UHGV virus genome: UHGV-1326494
Reading direction: 5' to 3' (one strand)
Source: a virus
Length of the DNA: 10,564 bases
Shown: positions 1,873-9,606 of the stretch, piece after piece
Numbering within the stretch: the first letter of the stretch is position 1
Layout: each line of letters opens with the position of its first letter
Program-made: the position numbers and the translations under genes
Notes under the pieces: model-generated
What the model was told of the DNA's origin: nothing
The model's database searches: none
Seen by the model: the letters and a program-made list of their open reading frames with translations, nothing else

Positions 1873-2045
1873 TTCCTCGCACGAAGTCTTAGCCACCGGA
1901 TATCCCACAGGTGAGCCGTGTAGTTGAAGGTTTTTACATCAGATTCTTTTGGGATTGGCTTGCGTTTATTTCTGGAGCGTTTCGTTGGAAGGTATTTGCA
2001 GTTTTCGCAGATTATGTCGGTAATACTTCGTCGCTGTCGTCTCAT
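1869..2045 (-). CDS. ninE: NinE-like small basic protein (58 aa)
   Basis: Hand-translated: [61 protein letters not shown] at 2043-2045 overlaps the ninC stop (ATGA). Below ORF-track cutoff. Confidence 0.65.
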
Positions 2046-2887
2046 GCCGCATCATCAAAATTAAATCCAAGCTGACATGAAAATGCTTCACATGATTCAG
2101 AACACGAACCTGAATCATACTGTCGCATTGATGTCATTCTTGAGGCTAACTCATCTCTTGATATATCACTAAACAAGGCAATCAGTGATTTAAGTGTATT
2201 ATTCCCTCGATACATAACCGGTTCCTTTCCTGTTTTTATTTCTGTATCAAGGATGTTGATAAATGCATCTGCAAGTTCTGGCTCATCCATGGCTGCCAGC
2301 GCAACCTTTTGCATACTTTTTTTTATACAGAAAACACAATTACCAAGATGCTCCTGTATGCCAAGATCAAACTTCTGCCCACTCCACCAATCAAGCACAT
2401 CCTGTTTTTCAAAATCGCTTATATCAGCCAGGTACCGAAAACCATTAGCCCTTTTAAGCCTGTTTGGTTCATCTGTGCGAATGCCAAGCCATGTGATGTA
2501 ATTTCCTTTCCCAAACTTTTCCTGACAATATTTGGTGAATGGAACAGACTTCATTCTGTCGGTACAGAACGCACCGCCGATATATGGATGTCCGTATTTA
2601 TTTAACATCCTTTTCCACGGTATAAGATCTGGACCAATATCATTGACACCTATCTCTTCATAACTACTGGCCTTCCCCATTTCTGGATTAGGTATTACAC
2701 GAAGGCAATGTAAGTCTATTTTCCAGTTACTGACGATATTTCGGATGAACTCATATGTTTTAGGGTGCTCTGCCCCTGTATCCATGAAAACGTAATGCAC
2801 GTCTTCACCTGCCTGTCGCTTTTGCTCCATTAGCCAGAGCAAATATGCTGACGTCCTGCCACCTGAGAAACTAACGACATTTATCAT
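2042..2887 (-). CDS. ninC: NinC-like protein, PAPS-reductase / PP-loop ATP pyrophosphatase superfamily (281 aa from internal start)
   Basis: ORF track 311 aa; the first 30 codons overlap the upstream methyltransferase. The internal ATG at 2885-2887 ([17 protein letters not shown], SGGxxS PP-loop) forms an ATGA overlap with the methyltransferase stop. Confidence 0.8.
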
Positions 2888-3411
2888 GCAGCCCTCCTGA
2901 CACCCTGCCCGATCGCCATCAATGCCGCTTTGGATACGGTAGTAAACATCCGTCGAGGACTGATGAACGGTCGCCAAATCAGCAGCATGGAGCCTTTGCT
3001 GTTTCCCTTCTTCTCCAGCCCTGTCGATGGTTCGATAAAATTAATCCGTCCATCAGTGATAATGCGAACTTCGTCGACACTCTCCAGAGCCTTGCTGAAC
3101 CATCCGACTGACATATCCTCTGGCACAAGCATAACTACCGTCTGTCGCTGTTGTATGCACTGCTCAGCGGCTTTTTCCACCCACGGCCTGATATTGCTGT
3201 ACGGTGGGTTATTCCAGATTGCACCGTGGCTTACCCACTCAGAATTGAGCGCGTCGTCGGCCTCAGTTAGCCAGTGAGCACACAGAGCATTTTTGTCGCT
3301 CGCTGCCGAATCCAGCCAGAATCCAAACTCAATATCCAGTGCATCAAAAAGCCAGAGCGGCGTTTGCCAGCAGTCCTTGTCGTGTGCTGGCGTATTTGAT
3401 TTGATAGTCAT
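2884..3411 (-). CDS. Orphan DNA N6-adenine methyltransferase, phage Dam family (175 aa)
   Basis: Translation from ATG at 3409-3411: MTIKSNTPAHDKDCWQTPLWLFDAL...WLDSAASDKNA...WNNPPYS. The WQTP start, D-A-A motif and NPPY catalytic motif are characteristic of phage-type Dam methylases. ATGA overlap with the ninB stop. No restriction endonuclease partner is visible. Confidence 0.8.
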   Translation of the reverse strand: MTIKSNTPAHDKDCWQTPLWLFDALDIEFGFWLDSAASDKNALCAHWLTEADDALNSEWVSHGAIWNNPPYSNIRPWVEKAAEQCIQQRQTVVMLVPEDMSVGWFSKALESVDEVRIITDGRINFIEPSTGLEKKGNSKGSMLLIWRPFISPRRMFTTVSKAALMAIGQGVRRAA

Positions 3412-3848
3412 GCAGCCCGATCTCCCCATCGCGCTTTCCATTCGAGAGCCAGTCGCGCTTCGTCTGACCACTTAACGCCACGCTCTGTACCGAATGCCTG
3501 TATAAGCTCTAATAGCTCCGCAAATTCGCTTACACGCATCCTGCTGGTTGACTGGCCTATTACCACAAAGCCATTCCCGGCAAGGTTAGGAACAACATCC
3601 TGCTGCTTTAATGCTGCGGTAAACACACACTTCCAGCTTTCTGCATCCAGCCAGCGACCATGCCATTCAACCTGACGAGAGACGTCACCAAGGCAAGCCC
3701 AAAGCTTTCGATTCTGGTCTAAGCTGCGGTTGCGTTCCTGAATGGTTACTACGATTGGTTTGGTTGGGTCTGGAAGAATTTGCTGTACTGCGTGAATAGC
3801 GTTTTGCTGATGTGCTGGAGATCGAATTTCAAAGGTTAGTTTTTTCAT
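3408..3848 (-). CDS. ninB: NinB/Orf recombination mediator (146 aa)
   Basis: ORF track 152 aa; start chosen at ATG 3846-3848 (MKKLTFEIRSPAHQQNAIHAVQQILPDP...), which has a purine-rich RBS (GGGAGAGAGGGAAG) upstream. Length and sequence match my memory of lambda NinB. Confidence 0.85.
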   Translation of the reverse strand: MKKLTFEIRSPAHQQNAIHAVQQILPDPTKPIVVTIQERNRSLDQNRKLWACLGDVSRQVEWHGRWLDAESWKCVFTAALKQQDVVPNLAGNGFVVIGQSTSRMRVSEFAELLELIQAFGTERGVKWSDEARLALEWKARWGDRAA

Positions 3849-6951: not shown

Positions 6952-7602
6952 ATGAAAACTCAATTGATGGGAGAGCGCATTCGCGCTCGGAGAAAAGAAC
7001 TCAAGATCAGGCAGGCCGCACTTGGAAAGATGGTCGGCGTGTCTAATGTTGCCATATCTCAGTGGGAACGCTCTGAGACAGAGCCAAATGGAGAGAATCT
7101 TCTCGCCCTGGCTAATGCGTTGAAGTGTTCCCCTGACTATCTGATGAAAGGAGAGGAAAGTCTTTCAAACATTGCCTATCACAGTAGGCATGATCCAAGA
7201 GGGTCATACCCTCTGATTAGCTGGGTGAGCGCAGGATGCTGGATGGAAGCTGTAGAACCATATCATAAGCGTGCAATAGATAACTGGTACGATACAACCG
7301 TAGACTGTTCAGAAGATTCGTTTTGGTTGGACGTGAAGGGAGACTCAATGACGGCTCCGGCCGGTCTCAGTATCCCTGAAGGAATGATAATACTCGTCGA
7401 TCCTGAAGTAGAGCCGCGTAACGGGAAACTGGTAGTTGCAAAGCTCGAAGGAGAAAACGAGGCAACTTTCAAGAAGTTAGTTATTGATGCAGGCAGGAAG
7501 TTTCTAAAACCACTTAACCCACAATATCCGATGATCGAGATCAACGGAAACTGCAAAATCATCGGCGTAGTTGTCGATGCAAAACTAGCAAACCTTCCAT
7601 AA
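6952..7602 (+). CDS. c2: Prophage repressor, P22 c2 / lambda cI family (216 aa) with HTH N-domain and LexA-like autocleaving C-domain
   Basis: ORF track 216 aa. N-terminal HTH (QAALGKMVGVSNVAISQWERSE) and C-terminal S24 peptidase-like domain (AG cleavage region, VKGDSM serine motif, a K near the C-terminus). Length matches P22 c2. Confidence 0.9.
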   Translation: MKTQLMGERIRARRKELKIRQAALGKMVGVSNVAISQWERSETEPNGENLLALANALKCSPDYLMKGEESLSNIAYHSRHDPRGSYPLISWVSAGCWMEAVEPYHKRAIDNWYDTTVDCSEDSFWLDVKGDSMTAPAGLSIPEGMIILVDPEVEPRNGKLVVAKLEGENEATFKKLVIDAGRKFLKPLNPQYPMIEINGNCKIIGVVVDAKLANLP

Positions 7603-7629
7603 GGGGGCATTCGCCCCTTTTTTTTATTT
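7601..7629 (+). terminator. Intrinsic terminator immediately after the repressor gene
   Basis: Hairpin aagggggc-attc-gcccctt (7601-7619) followed by a T-run (to 7629). It overlaps the repressor stop codon. Confidence 0.7.
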
Positions 7630-7649
7630 CCTTTAAAAATCAAAGCCAA

Positions 7650-7722
7650 ACTTAAGTTACGAAAGAAAATTTAAGTTTTCTTCAAAAATACTCTTGACCA
7701 TTAATTAAAGAGATCTTAAATT
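7650..7722 (+). promoter_or_regulatory. OL/PL region: PL promoter with an embedded operator
   Basis: -35 TTGACC (7694-7699), 17-bp spacer, -10 TAAATT (7717-7722). Operator-like site attaaagagatcttaaat (7703-7720) sits in the spacer. Further TTAAG/CTTAA half-sites at 7650-7680 are candidate extra operators. Confidence 0.6.
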
Positions 7723-7767
7723 TAAGCCATCAGCAGGACGCTGGTAGCCAAACGGAACAGATTGGCA

Positions 7768-7809
7768 GGCTCTTTAACATTGATGGGATTGTCCCGCCGA
7801 AATGCGGGA
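7768..7809 (+). promoter_or_regulatory. nutL: boxA plus boxB hairpin downstream of PL
   Basis: boxA GGCTCTTTAACA (7768-7779). boxB stem cccgc (7793-7797), loop cgaaat (7798-7803), stem gcggg (7804-7808). The RNA is identical to the nutR boxB transcribed from the opposite strand. Confidence 0.6.
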
Positions 7810-7980
7810 ACCAAAGAGTAGTTGGCTTTGGGGTGTGGTGAAGGGTTCATGGACGGGAATATGTCGCACGTAAAGCGGCGAGGCCTGCGGAACTATTGCC
7901 GAATTGAAGTCGGACGAAGCGGGTCGAAATGGGTCTCCCACCTACCACACCACCAAAGCTAATCATCTGAGGAACAAAAA

Positions 7981-8100
7981 ATGTTAGACATCATGACCAA
8001 CCCAATTCTCGGTGGTTTAGTTACCACATTCGCCATCTGCTTCGGTTTCACTATCTGGTCTGAAGTAGATGACTGGATGTGGGAACGCAAAAACAAATAA
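7981..8100 (+). CDS. Candidate small hydrophobic protein (39 aa) in the PL leader between nutL and the N-like gene
   Basis: ATG at 7981 preceded by GAGGAA at about 7 nt. MLDIMTNPILGGLVTTFAICFGFTIWSEVDDWMWERKNK has one predicted transmembrane segment. No homology claim. Confidence 0.3.
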   Translation: MLDIMTNPILGGLVTTFAICFGFTIWSEVDDWMWERKNK

Positions 8101-8140
8101 TCATCGTCACACAAGGATGTGTACCTTCCCGGAGGTCAAC

Positions 8141-8413
8141 ATGACAGTAGTCATTACATATCTGGCTGACGATAATGCCAGAAATCGCCGCAGAGCACGC
8201 AGACAGGCTCAACGTGAACAGGCAATGCAAGAGCAGCGACTGGCGCGAAAAATTGCGCTAAAGCTCTCTGGTTGCGTCAGAGCAGACAAAGCAGCATCAC
8301 TCGGAAGCCTTCGCTGCAAGAAGGCAGATGAATGCAGTGGAAGTATTTGCCTGCCAAACGTAGCTCTTTACGCGGCAGGCTACCGGAAATCAAAACAACT
8401 GACAGCGAGGTGA
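8141..8413 (+). CDS. N-like transcription antitermination protein (90 aa from the GGAGG-supported start; alternative 114-aa form from ATG 8069)
   Basis: GGAGG 6 nt upstream of ATG 8141. Arginine-rich motif NARNRRRARRQAQREQ near the N-terminus. The C-terminus (...VALYAAGYRKSKQLTAR) resembles what I remember of P22 gene 24. Located downstream of PL and nutL. Confidence 0.75.
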   Translation: MTVVITYLADDNARNRRRARRQAQREQAMQEQRLARKIALKLSGCVRADKAASLGSLRCKKADECSGSICLPNVALYAAGYRKSKQLTAR

Positions 8414-8435: not shown

Positions 8436-8975
8436 CTAAATTAGCTCATCAGCTTTACCAGCAAAGCGCATATAACACTCATGGAACCAGACGTCAGGTA
8501 TAACAAATTTCTCTTTACCTGACGCGCTGTAAGTCACACCTGAGCGATGGAGAAGGCCTTTTCTCATAAGAGATAAAGCGACCGGATCGCCGTGCTTAAG
8601 TACGATTTTGTTATTTGCCATAACAGCAAATGCTAAAACCTCTTTTTCCTGAATACTCAGAGAATTGAATAGGCGCTCAGTCTCCACAATTACTTTAGCC
8701 TCATCTATCTTACTGAGATATTTTTTATATCTGTCTGAAGATGCCAGAAATATAAACTCCACCCCCCTGTTCAGAACATAACTGATACACAAAAGCATTG
8801 CGTAATACATCCAGTGATCTGGAAGTATTTCGGGGTTCCTTATATCTACCCACTCTTTAATTGATGCTGGGGTGATTATTATCAAGGTAATTAAAATAAT
8901 AAGCATATGAATTAACTGTTGTAGCGTAAGACCACGCAGGAAGAAACGTAATAGTTCCTGCCACCAGTTACTCAT
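8436..8975 (-). CDS. Membrane protein antisense to the PL operon (179 aa); superinfection-exclusion SieB-like by position and architecture, family not confirmed
   Basis: ORF track 179 aa. GGAG about 8 nt upstream of the ATG at 8973-8975. Two predicted TM segments (LIHMLIILITLIIIT and WMYYAMLLCISYVL) followed by a soluble domain. The gene is visibly AT-rich compared with its neighbours and is convergent with the N-like gene. Confidence 0.65.
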   Translation of the reverse strand: MSNWWQELLRFFLRGLTLQQLIHMLIILITLIIITPASIKEWVDIRNPEILPDHWMYYAMLLCISYVLNRGVEFIFLASSDRYKKYLSKIDEAKVIVETERLFNSLSIQEKEVLAFAVMANNKIVLKHGDPVALSLMRKGLLHRSGVTYSASGKEKFVIPDVWFHECYMRFAGKADELI

Positions 8976-8995
8976 CGGTGAATCTCCATCATTCT

Positions 8996-9043
8996 CTCTG
9001 TAGGGGTGAATAGAGTTTATCCGATTTCTCGCTGTAGGGGTAC
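8996..9043. repeat. Direct repeat pair upstream of the antisense membrane-protein gene
   Basis: ctgtaggggt at 8998-9007 and again at 9032-9041, 34 bp apart. Extended match tcNctgtaggggt. Confidence 0.5.
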
Positions 9044-9237
9044 ACGAGAACCACCGAGCCTGATGTGGTTAAAAGACAGGCATACGAATAAACACTGCAC
9101 TGTGTATTCATTCCAACGAGTGAATACACGGAGCAATGTCGCTCGTAACTAAACAGGAGCCGACTTGTTCTGATTATTGGAAATCTTCTTTGCCCTCTAA
9201 TGTGAGGACGATTTTTTATCTGTGAGGATATGAACAG

Positions 9238-9606
9238 ATGTCAAACATCAAAAAATACATCATTGATTACGACTGGAAAGCATCAATAGAAATTGAAATC
9301 GACCATGACGTAATGACAGAGGAAAAACTTCACCAGATTAATAATTTCTGGTCAGACTCTGAATACCGACTCAATAAACACGGCTCTGTATTAAATGCTG
9401 TATTAATCATGCTGGCGCAACATGCTCTGCTTATAGCAATTTCAAGCGACTTAAATGCATATGGTGTTGTGTGTGAGTTCGACTGGAATGATGGAAATGG
9501 TCAGGAAGGATGGCCTCCAATGAATGGTAGCGAAGGAATAAGAATTACCGATATCGACACATCTGGAATATTTGATTCAGATGATATGACTATCAAAGCC
9601 GCCTGA
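9238..9606 (+). CDS. ea10: Ea10-like protein (122 aa)
   Basis: ORF track 122 aa with GAGGA upstream. AT-rich. Position between the N region and cIII, and the length, match lambda ea10. The identity is from memory and position, not a search. Confidence 0.6.
   Translation: MSNIKKYIIDYDWKASIEIEIDHDVMTEEKLHQINNFWSDSEYRLNKHGSVLNAVLIMLAQHALLIAISSDLNAYGVVCEFDWNDGNGQEGWPPMNGSEGIRITDIDTSGIFDSDDMTIKAA

What the first reader, a model, noticed from the sequence alone, without database searches (positions are those of the whole stretch)
8436..9237. AT-rich antisense membrane-protein gene with its own control region inside the PL operon
A 179-aa two-TM protein is encoded on the strand opposite to PL transcription, between the N-like gene and ea10. 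It has its own RBS and a 260-bp upstream region containing direct repeats and a hairpin. Its AT content is clearly higher than the flanking replication and nin genes, which suggests a horizontally acquired moron. Position and architecture fit a SieB-type superinfection-exclusion or abortive-infection protein, but I cannot confirm the family from sequence memory, so it could be a distinct exclusion protein. This is the most defense-like element in the window.
Basis: partly seen in the sequence, partly recalled or inferred. Interest (0 to 1): 0.65.

Follow-up and report, generated by a model that had tools for sequence, protein, structure and literature searches.

The report
Known SieB superinfection-exclusion gene module
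The antisense membrane-protein gene is an ordinary copy of the long-known lambdoid prophage gene sieB, with its conserved promoter, internal Esc start and sas antisense-RNA region, already annotated in over a hundred E. coli genomes.

Summary
A 179-aa ORF (8436-8975, minus strand) lies between N and ea10, antisense to PL transcription. It has a GGAG ribosome-binding site, two hydrophobic segments and 39% GC against 47% for the window.

The protein scores 69 bits against Pfam SieB (cut-off 26) and E 2.7e-92 against PHROG 1301. It is 50% identical over its full length to the experimentally characterised P22 SieB. The same allele, at 99% identity or more, is in 112 complete E. coli genomes, named "super-infection exclusion protein B".

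Only the proximal ~110 bp of the "260-bp control region" belongs to sieB. It contains a 31/31 match to the annotated P22 sieB promoter. On the PL strand it matches the P22 sas antisense RNA at 104 of 112 positions. The direct repeats lie inside this block. Met24 aligns with the P22 Esc start.

The distal ~150 bp is the lambda ral-ea10 spacer, with ral absent, and it holds the large hairpin.

A structure model suggests a two-helix membrane anchor plus a cytoplasmic winged-helix-like domain. The module is already known and of low interest. No exclusion phenotype was tested.

The parts
8436..8975 (-). sieB coding sequence (179 aa), P22-type SieB allele
   Evidence: Pfam PF14163 scores 69.3 bits against a cut-off of 26. 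PHROG 1301 gives E 2.7e-92 over residues 1-179. BLASTP against P22 SieB gives 50% identity and E 8e-56. The same gene at 99.4% identity is annotated 'super-infection exclusion protein B' in RefSeq E. coli genomes.
8436..8906 (-). Esc-equivalent in-frame reading frame, starting at Met24 (156 aa)
   Evidence: Met24 aligns with Met25 of P22 SieB, which is the annotated start of Esc (BK000583 29830). M24 is conserved in at least 90% of 34 family members. No Shine-Dalgarno sequence precedes it. Expression was not tested.
8859..8930 (-). Codons for hydrophobic segment 1 (about aa 16-39; predicted transmembrane helix)
   Evidence: Kyte-Doolittle 19-residue windows reach up to 2.5. AlphaFold2 places a helix at residues 18-34.
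8739..8813 (-). Codons for hydrophobic segment 2 (about aa 55-79; predicted transmembrane helix that continues as a long stalk helix to aa 104)
   Evidence: Hydropathy reaches 1.6. AlphaFold2 places one helix at residues 55-104. The loop between the two segments carries a net charge of -2. That suggests an N-in/C-in topology, but the evidence is weak: the N-terminus is only +1 and aa 80-100 are net 0 (inference).
8451..8663 (-). Codons for the C-terminal soluble domain (about aa 105-175), winged-helix-like, the more variable half of the family
8984..8987 (-). Shine-Dalgarno sequence GGAG of sieB
   Evidence: Read directly from the sequence; an 8-nt spacer separates it from the ATG.
9007..9007 (-). 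Position equivalent to the mapped 5' end of P22 sieB mRNA
   Evidence: The P22 record annotates 'sieB RNA start site' at 29727. The same sequence, ACCCCTACAGAGAG, begins at window 9007.
9014..9044 (-). PsieB promoter equivalent
   Evidence: The 31-nt annotated P22 sieB promoter (BK000583 29690-29720) is present with 31/31 identity. It is a weak sigma-70 consensus and was not picked up by the consensus scan.
8992..9007 (.). Direct repeat copy 1 (ACCCCTACAGAGAGAA on the minus strand), at the mRNA start
   Evidence: conserved in P22 and lambda.
9026..9041 (.). Direct repeat copy 2 (ACCCCTACAGCGAGAA on the minus strand), overlapping the -35 side of PsieB
   Evidence: invariant in P22, lambda, VT1-Sakai and two E. 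coli prophages.
8972..9082 (+). sas antisense-RNA equivalent (PL-sense strand). It covers the SieB start codon, the Shine-Dalgarno sequence, the leader and the promoter block.
   Evidence: It is identical at 104 of 112 aligned positions to nt 2-111 of the 127-nt P22 sas RNA sequence reported from RNA-seq in PMC13397905, Table 2. The predicted three-hairpin fold is the same as for P22 sas. Transcription in this phage was not tested.
9084..9237 (+). Distal half of the intergenic region. It is homologous to lambda's ral-ea10 spacer and is not part of the sieB control region. It contains a long hairpin (9092-9139) and a terminator-like hairpin plus T-run (9192-9220) just upstream of ea10.
   Evidence: The alignment with lambda and with prophage CU37RT-2 shows the ral module missing, with the junction at about 9083/9084. 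VT1-Sakai and RM8385 have the same junction. Fold z-score is -4.3.

Best explanation
This is the sieB/esc/sas superinfection-exclusion module of a lambdoid (HK97/HK544-like) E. coli phage, carrying a P22-type sieB allele.

Expected behaviour, by homology with P22 (published genetics, not tested here):
1. In the lysogen, the repressor-independent promoter PsieB (9044-9014, minus strand) makes a short-leader mRNA starting at about 9007. This is translated into SieB.
2. The model of SieB shows two N-terminal transmembrane helices, a long stalk helix and a cytoplasmic winged-helix-like C-terminal domain.
3. When a heteroimmune lambdoid phage superinfects, SieB aborts its lytic development midway. 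Macromolecular synthesis stops. This is an abortive-infection phenotype, and its molecular trigger and effector step are still unknown.
4. The phage protects itself in two ways. PL transcription on the + strand yields the sas antisense RNA (about 8972-9082), which pairs with the sieB leader, Shine-Dalgarno sequence and start codon and blocks SieB synthesis. Translation from the in-frame Met24 codon (8906) continues and gives Esc, an N-terminally truncated SieB that inhibits SieB.

Shown here: family membership, locus architecture, promoter identity, the sas-equivalent sequence and the conserved internal Met.

Inferred: expression, membrane topology, the fold of the C-terminal domain, exclusion activity and its spectrum.
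For: Family membership:
- Pfam SieB scores 69.3 bits against a cut-off of 26.
- PHROG 1301 'superinfection exclusion' gives E 2.7e-92 over the full length.
- Identity to P22 SieB is 50% over residues 2-179, E 8e-56.
- The top BFVD structural hit is the P22 protein Q38660.

Locus architecture:
- The gene has the same position and orientation as in P22 and lambda: convergent with N/24 and antisense to PL.
- The 31-nt P22 PsieB is identical in the window. The TSS-equivalent is at 9007.
- The block 9000-9082 is nearly invariant across P22, lambda, VT1-Sakai and E. coli prophages, while the coding regions fall to 22-50% amino-acid identity.

Self-protection elements:
- Window 8972-9082 (+) matches the P22 sas RNA at 104 of 112 positions.
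- Met24 aligns with the P22 Esc start and is at least 90% conserved in the family.

Existing annotation and literature:
- The allele is present at 99% identity or more in 112 complete E. coli genomes (123 of 5426 genomes have any match). It is annotated as SieB.
- The SieB phenotype and the Esc/sas switch are described in PMC10883804, PMC12197685 and PMC7067206. These cite Susskind 1974 and Ranade & Poteete 1993 (PMIDs 8335629 and 8339929).
Against: - No functional data exist for this allele.
- It is only 50% identical to P22 SieB (43% in the C-terminal half). Pairwise BLASTP against lambda SieB finds no meaningful match (best E 0.11, a short out-of-register stretch).
- No Shine-Dalgarno sequence precedes Met24.
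- The sas-equivalent and the mRNA leader do not fold more stably than shuffled sequence (z -0.25 and -0.6).
- There is no Rfam family for sas, so the RNA assignment rests on sequence identity alone.
- PADLOC and NCBIfam have no model that matches.
- The promoter is a poor sigma-70 consensus and is identified only by homology.
Confidence: 0.88

Rival explanations
1. A SieB-family gene that is intact but no longer acts as an exclusion system in this phage. It could be a drifting remnant, or a copy whose partner functions (Esc or sas) are uncoupled, carried along only because it lies inside a conserved recombination block.
For: All three nucleotide differences from the closest RefSeq allele are nonsynonymous: A30T, M72V and R90I. 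A 6-codon upstream ORF (8992-8972) overlaps the start codon in this allele but not in P22. Of the 123 E. coli genomes with a match, 53 carry only a partial copy.
Against: The ORF is full length. The promoter, Shine-Dalgarno sequence, Met24 and sas block are all intact. The invariant family residues are retained. The allele is kept at 99% identity or more in 112 genomes, across prophages with different immunity and replication modules.
Confidence: 0.08
2. A distinct, non-SieB membrane exclusion or abortive-infection protein that merely occupies the sieB slot.
For: No phage record in the collection carries a protein more than 60% identical. There is no PADLOC hit. Pairwise BLASTP against lambda SieB finds no meaningful match (best E 0.11).
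Against: Collinear homology to P22 SieB runs the full length (E 8e-56). The Pfam score is far above threshold. The promoter and sas block are shared.
Confidence: 0.02
3. A membrane-anchored winged-helix regulator whose main role is to control phage or host gene expression or DNA transactions at the membrane, with exclusion only as a side effect.
Against: The winged helix is a very common small fold, sequence identity to the hits is 4-17%, and Foldseek E-values are not significant. Published P22 genetics assign the gene to exclusion. No DNA-binding residues were tested.
Confidence: 0.03

Closest known systems
Salmonella phage P22 SieB / Esc / sas RNA (Susskind et al. 1974; Ranade & Poteete 1993, PMIDs 8335629 and 8339929)
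   Same: - 50% identity over the full length.
- Same two hydrophobic segments and the same conserved loop motif (KEW.N..NPEI.P..WMYY).
- Same locus: convergent with the N/24 gene and antisense to PL.
- Identical 31-nt PsieB and the same mRNA-start sequence.
- Conserved in-frame Met at the Esc start.
- 104 of 112 positions identical to the sas RNA.
   Different: - 13 residues shorter at the C-terminus.
- The C-terminal half is only 43% identical.
- The part of sas that actually pairs with the mRNA (leader, 8979-8995) differs from P22 at 8 of the 9 alignment differences, including indels. The antisense is therefore allele-matched.
- The Shine-Dalgarno sequence is GGAG instead of AAGAGAA.
- A small upstream ORF overlaps the start codon.
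- ral is absent upstream; ea10 follows directly.
- The host is E. coli.
Phage lambda SieB (lambdap48, 34482-35036)
   Same: Same slot between N and the ral/ea10 genes and the same orientation. The upstream promoter block (window about 9010-9082) is essentially identical. Both belong to Pfam PF14163. An in-frame Met aligns with Met24.
   Different: About 22% amino-acid identity. Pairwise BLASTP finds no meaningful match; the relationship shows only through profiles (PHROG 6399, E 9e-6). The leader and coding sequence are unrelated at the DNA level downstream of the mRNA start.
RefSeq WP_000073663.1 and WP_021548194.1, 'super-infection exclusion protein B' of E. coli prophages (O103 RM8385, O26, O16:H6 CU37RT-2 and others)
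   Same: This is the same allele: 179 aa with 3-5 amino-acid differences, and an identical promoter/sas block. RM8385 also has the same ral-less junction.
   Different: Three substitutions relative to WP_000073663.1 (A30T, M72V, R90I). The surrounding immunity, replication and recombination modules differ, as expected for lambdoid mosaics.
Lambda RexA/RexB and other prophage abortive-infection systems with membrane components
   Same: They work alike in outline only: a prophage-expressed, membrane-associated system that aborts the lytic growth of superinfecting phages.
   Different: There is no sequence or fold relationship. SieB is a single gene with a built-in antidote (Esc) and an antisense RNA. 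This window has no rex genes: a terminator directly follows cI at 7601-7620.

Membership tests
SieB (Pfam PF14163; P22-type superinfection exclusion protein B) | Sequence matches the family profile above the curated threshold | tested here: met
   69.3 bits against a gathering score of 26, covering residues 23-154. PHROG 1301 gives E 2.7e-92 over residues 1-179.
SieB (Pfam PF14163; P22-type superinfection exclusion protein B) | Full-length collinear homology to the experimentally characterised P22 SieB | tested here: met
   BLASTP gives 50% identity, 73% positives and E 8e-56 over residues 2-179. The top BFVD structural hit is P22 Q38660.
SieB (Pfam PF14163; P22-type superinfection exclusion protein B) | Located in the early-left region next to the N/24 antiterminator gene and transcribed against PL | tested here: met
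   The window layout matches the annotated P22 and lambda loci.
SieB (Pfam PF14163; P22-type superinfection exclusion protein B) | Own repressor-independent promoter PsieB with a mapped transcription start | tested here: met
   At the sequence level, the annotated P22 promoter is matched 31/31 and the start-site sequence is identical. Promoter activity itself cannot be tested with these tools.
SieB (Pfam PF14163; P22-type superinfection exclusion protein B) | In-frame internal start that gives the Esc antidote protein | tested here: inconclusive
   Met24 aligns with the P22 Esc start and is at least 90% conserved. There is no Shine-Dalgarno sequence before it, and no expression data exist.
SieB (Pfam PF14163; P22-type superinfection exclusion protein B) | sas antisense RNA complementary to the 5' end of sieB mRNA | tested here: met
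   At the sequence level, window 8972-9082 (+) matches the published P22 sas RNA at 104 of 112 positions. It covers the Shine-Dalgarno sequence and ATG but not Met24. Transcription was not tested, and Rfam has no matching family.
SieB (Pfam PF14163; P22-type superinfection exclusion protein B) | Membrane association through N-terminal hydrophobic segments | tested here: met
   By prediction only: two hydrophobic segments that are helical in the model, within the most conserved part of the family.
SieB (Pfam PF14163; P22-type superinfection exclusion protein B) | Aborts lytic growth of superinfecting heteroimmune lambdoid phages, while the home phage escapes | not testable with these tools
   The phenotype is known only from the literature on P22 and lambda.
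Known defence systems in PADLOC-DB | Match to any PADLOC protein model | tested here: not met
   No family matched at E 0.1 or better. SieB does not appear to be modelled in that 2023 release.

The most novel reading that the evidence does not exclude
SieB/Esc/sas modules may form allele-specific 'exclusion groups'. Two observations point that way.
- Between this allele and P22, the only part of sas that pairs with sieB mRNA (the 36-nt leader and start region) carries 8 of the 9 differences, while the rest is invariant.
- The C-terminal winged-helix-like domain is the variable half of the protein.

If so, this allele could have a different trigger or exclusion spectrum. Its antidote (Esc and sas) might not cross-protect phages that carry P22-type or lambda-type sieB. 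The winged-helix domain would then be the sensor for a phage nucleic acid or protein at the membrane.
Probability: 0.25. Interest if true: 0.4.

Novelty: already known. Interest (0 to 1): 0.12.

Why it matters
It matters little as a discovery. The gene family, its promoter, the Esc antidote and the sas antisense RNA were described in 1974-1993, and this exact allele is routinely named by NCBI's annotation pipeline.

Two things still have value:
- The molecular mechanism of SieB remains unknown: what it senses, and how it stops macromolecular synthesis.
- A naturally divergent allele with a matched leader/antisense pair and a variable winged-helix-like cytoplasmic domain would be a convenient comparison partner for P22 SieB in domain-swap and specificity experiments.

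Tried and rejected
- Rfam scan of the whole window at E 1 or better: no hit, so no curated RNA family covers sas or the hairpins.
- PADLOC: no hit.
- NCBIfam: only a spurious sub-threshold lspA match.
- PDB sequence search: no hit.
- Foldseek against the PDB: nothing significant, best E 0.1.
- Thermodynamic support for structure in the sas-equivalent and the sieB leader: not better than shuffles, z -0.25 and -0.6. I therefore make no structure claim beyond the shared predicted fold with P22 sas.
- The consensus promoter scan did not find PsieB. It is assigned by homology only.
- I looked by eye for a separate + strand promoter for sas inside the 5' coding region and found nothing convincing. 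Whether sas comes from its own promoter or from processing or termination of PL transcripts is left open.
- The original Ranade & Poteete J Bacteriol paper (PMC204922) and the Casjens & Hendrix lambda review (PMC4424060) are not held. Statements about them rest on secondary citations and my own recollection.
- One literature search was badly specified and returned irrelevant papers.
- The word-index homologue search with the single sequence found only 6 proteins. A profile search was needed to find more.
- I considered that the large hairpin at 9092-9139 might belong to sieB control and rejected this. It lies in DNA homologous to lambda's ral-ea10 spacer, beyond the ral-less junction.

Full report
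**Context.** The window is the immunity/early region of a mosaic lambdoid coliphage. Its closest deposited relatives are HK544 and HK446, and no record covers more than 67% of it.
- On the + strand lie a cI-type LexA/S24 repressor (6952-7602), an N-like antiterminator (8069-8413), ea10/DUF2528 (9238-9606), then cIII and kil.
- On the minus strand lie cro, cII, O, a DnaB-like helicase and the nin genes.
- A sigma-70-like promoter at 7694-7722 sits among TTAAG-type operator repeats and is followed by a boxA/boxB-like nutL. PL transcription therefore runs left to right on the + strand.

**Observation.**
- It spans 8436-8975 on the minus strand and encodes 179 aa, starting at ATG, with GGAG 8 nt upstream.
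- It is convergent with N (22 bp between the two stop codons) and antisense to PL.
- Hydropathy gives one strong hydrophobic segment (about aa 16-39) and one weaker (about aa 55-79).
- GC is 39.4%, against 46.9% for the window and 50-53% for N, O and the helicase gene. ea10 (38.5%) and part of the nin region are equally AT-rich.
- The 262-bp upstream region contains a 16-nt direct repeat (8992-9007 and 9026-9041, 15/16 identical) and a long inverted repeat (9092-9139).

**Identity of the protein.** The protein belongs to the SieB family.
- Pfam SieB (PF14163) scores 69.3 bits against a gathering score of 26.
- PHROG 1301 ('superinfection exclusion') matches end to end at E 2.7e-92. The lambda-type SieB family, PHROG 6399, matches at E 9e-6.
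- tblastn against phage genomes finds 91 records, all below 60% identity. The best are P22 and P22-like phages at about 50% over residues 2-179, on features annotated sieB/esc.
- Direct BLASTP against P22 SieB gives 50% identity and E 8e-56.
- Pairwise BLASTP against lambda SieB finds no meaningful match (best E 0.11, a short out-of-register stretch). MAFFT identity is about 22%.
- The exact allele is not new. A megablast of the gene finds it in 123 of 5426 complete E. coli genomes, 112 of them at 99% identity or more. It is annotated 'super-infection exclusion protein B' throughout (examples).
- The window's protein differs from WP_000073663.1 by A30T, M72V and R90I.
- An exhaustive phmmer scan of 1.84 billion cluster representatives finds only 35 related clusters. 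A profile search finds 119 clusters at 90% identity; the organisms named in the listing are Enterobacterales genera such as Salmonella, Escherichia, Citrobacter, Yersinia and Xenorhabdus. This is a narrow family of enterobacterial prophages.

**The control region is composite.** Alignment with P22, lambda and an E. coli prophage splits the 262 bp into two parts.
- *Proximal part (about 8976-9082).* This belongs to sieB. From 9082 to about 9000 it is nearly invariant in P22, lambda, VT1-Sakai and two E. coli prophages, even though the adjacent coding sequences have diverged to 22-50% amino-acid identity.
  - It contains a 31/31 match to the annotated P22 sieB promoter (BK000583 29690-29720, equivalent to window 9044-9014).
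  - It contains the sequence at the annotated P22 sieB RNA start (29727, equivalent to window 9007).
One copy begins at the mRNA start and the other overlaps the -35 side of the promoter.
- *The opposite strand of the same block.* On the + strand, the PL-sense strand, it corresponds to the sas antisense RNA.
  - A 2026 RNA-seq study reports the sequence of a 127-nt P22 sas RNA (PMC13397905, Table 2).
  - That sequence maps to BK000583 29636-29762 on the complementary strand. Window 8972-9082 (+) matches its nt 2-111 at 104 of 112 positions and has the same predicted three-hairpin fold.
  - The sas-equivalent covers the SieB Shine-Dalgarno sequence (8987-8984) and start codon (8975-8973). It stops well short of the in-frame Met24 codon (8906-8904).
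  - Eight of the nine differences from P22 sas fall in 8979-8995. This is the segment complementary to the sieB mRNA leader, so the antisense is matched to its own allele.
- *Distal part (9084-9237).* This is not sieB control DNA. It is about 98% identical to lambda's ral-ea10 spacer, with the ral module missing at a junction near 9083/9084. VT1-Sakai and E. coli RM8385 have the same junction.
  - It holds the long hairpin (9092-9139) and a terminator-like hairpin plus T-run (9192-9220) just before ea10.
  - The + strand RNA of 9080-9240 folds far better than shuffled sequence (z -4.3).
  - These are features of the PL transcript.

**Esc.** P22 records annotate esc as the in-frame product starting at Met25 of SieB. 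Met24 of the window protein aligns with it. The column is invariant in the four-sequence alignment and at least 90% conserved among 34 family members. No Shine-Dalgarno sequence precedes it. That is compatible with the published idea that its use depends on the sas-induced translational switch, but I could not test this.

**Protein architecture.** An AlphaFold2 model built from a 34-sequence alignment has mean pLDDT 76, about 60-68 over the N-terminal 60 residues and 85-92 in the C-terminal domain.
- It shows helices at residues 3-15, 18-34 and 37-46, one long helix at 55-104, and a compact alpha/beta domain at about 105-175.
- Foldseek against the PDB is not significant. I treat the winged-helix assignment as fold-level resemblance only.
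- The inter-segment loop carries net charge -2. This hints that both termini, and hence the C-terminal domain, are cytoplasmic. The support is weak, because the N-terminus is only +1 and aa 80-100 are net 0 (inference).
- The N-terminal 80 residues are 64% identical to P22 SieB and the remainder 43%. A conserved membrane module paired with a variable soluble domain suggests that specificity lies in the soluble domain (inference).

**Mechanism.** The literature describes the P22 system as follows (PMC10883804, PMC12197685, PMC7067206 and PMC3224144, citing Susskind et al. 1974 and Ranade & Poteete 1993).
- SieB made by the prophage causes macromolecular synthesis to stop midway through the lytic cycle of superinfecting P22-like phages.
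- P22 itself escapes, because sas RNA switches translation of sieB mRNA from SieB to the truncated inhibitor Esc.

Every sequence element of that system is present and intact in the window, so I assign the same mechanism with high confidence. What SieB senses and how it halts synthesis is unknown for any member of the family. Membrane perturbation triggered through the cytoplasmic domain is a reasonable guess, not a result.

**Verdict.** The module is already known and already annotated. Interest is low. The only mildly new points are descriptive:
- the allele-matched divergence of the leader/sas pairing segment;
- the winged-helix-like prediction for the variable C-terminal domain;
- the ral-less junction that places the ea10-proximal PL spacer next to the sieB promoter block.

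Noticed in passing
window 8972-8992 (minus strand): A 6-codon upstream ORF (ATGATGGAGATTCACCGATGA) lies in the sieB leader, and its stop codon overlaps the sieB ATG (ATGA). It is present in this allele (also in CU37RT-2 and RM8385) but not in P22 or VT1-Sakai. It may be chance or a case of translational coupling.
   Followed up: partly
window 9092-9139 (+): A long hairpin (22-nt arms, with a 14-bp perfect core) lies in the PL-sense transcript between the sieB promoter block and ea10. It is conserved in lambda's ral-ea10 spacer. The region folds with z = -4.3. No T-run follows it, so it is not an intrinsic terminator. It could be a processing site. Rfam has no match.
   Followed up: partly
window 9192-9220 (+): A terminator-like hairpin plus T-run (GCCCTCtaatgtGAGGACGATTTTTTATC) ends about 18 nt before the ea10 start codon. 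Compared with lambda (GCCCTCcagtgtGAGGGC), the stem carries a G-to-A change that introduces a mismatch. The consensus scan did not call it.
   Followed up: no
window about 9083/9084: The ral gene module, which lies between sieB and ea10 in lambda, P22 and prophage CU37RT-2, is absent. VT1-Sakai and E. coli O103 RM8385 share the same junction sequence (TTATTCGTATGCCTGTC). This is therefore an inherited ral-less arrangement rather than a private deletion.
   Followed up: partly
window 7601-7620 (+) and 7603-8068: A strong intrinsic terminator (AAGGGGGCATTCGCCCCTT followed by a T-run) starts at the stop codon of cI. There are no rexA/rexB genes between cI and PL, unlike lambda and several related E. 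coli prophages. sieB is therefore the only recognisable exclusion gene in the window.
   Followed up: no
window 2042-2977 (minus strand) and 2884-3471 (minus strand): The nin region carries a Dam-type N6-adenine methyltransferase (Pfam Dam, E 9e-65). Its coding region overlaps that of a 311-aa PAPS-reductase-domain (PP-loop) protein, which lies in an AT-rich block (GC 0.39-0.43 over about 1650-2850). This could be a DNA- or nucleotide-modification cargo.
   Followed up: partly
window 8591-8604 (+): A weak terminator-like site (CGTGCTTAAGTACG followed by ATTTTGTTAT) lies on the PL-sense strand inside the sieB coding region. From memory only, lambda's tL1 lies antisense within its sieB region, so this could be a positional analogue. 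Equally, it could be chance.
   Followed up: no
window 8436-8975: All three nucleotide differences from the commonest E. coli allele are nonsynonymous (A30T in TM1, M72V in TM2 and R90I in the stalk).
   Followed up: partly
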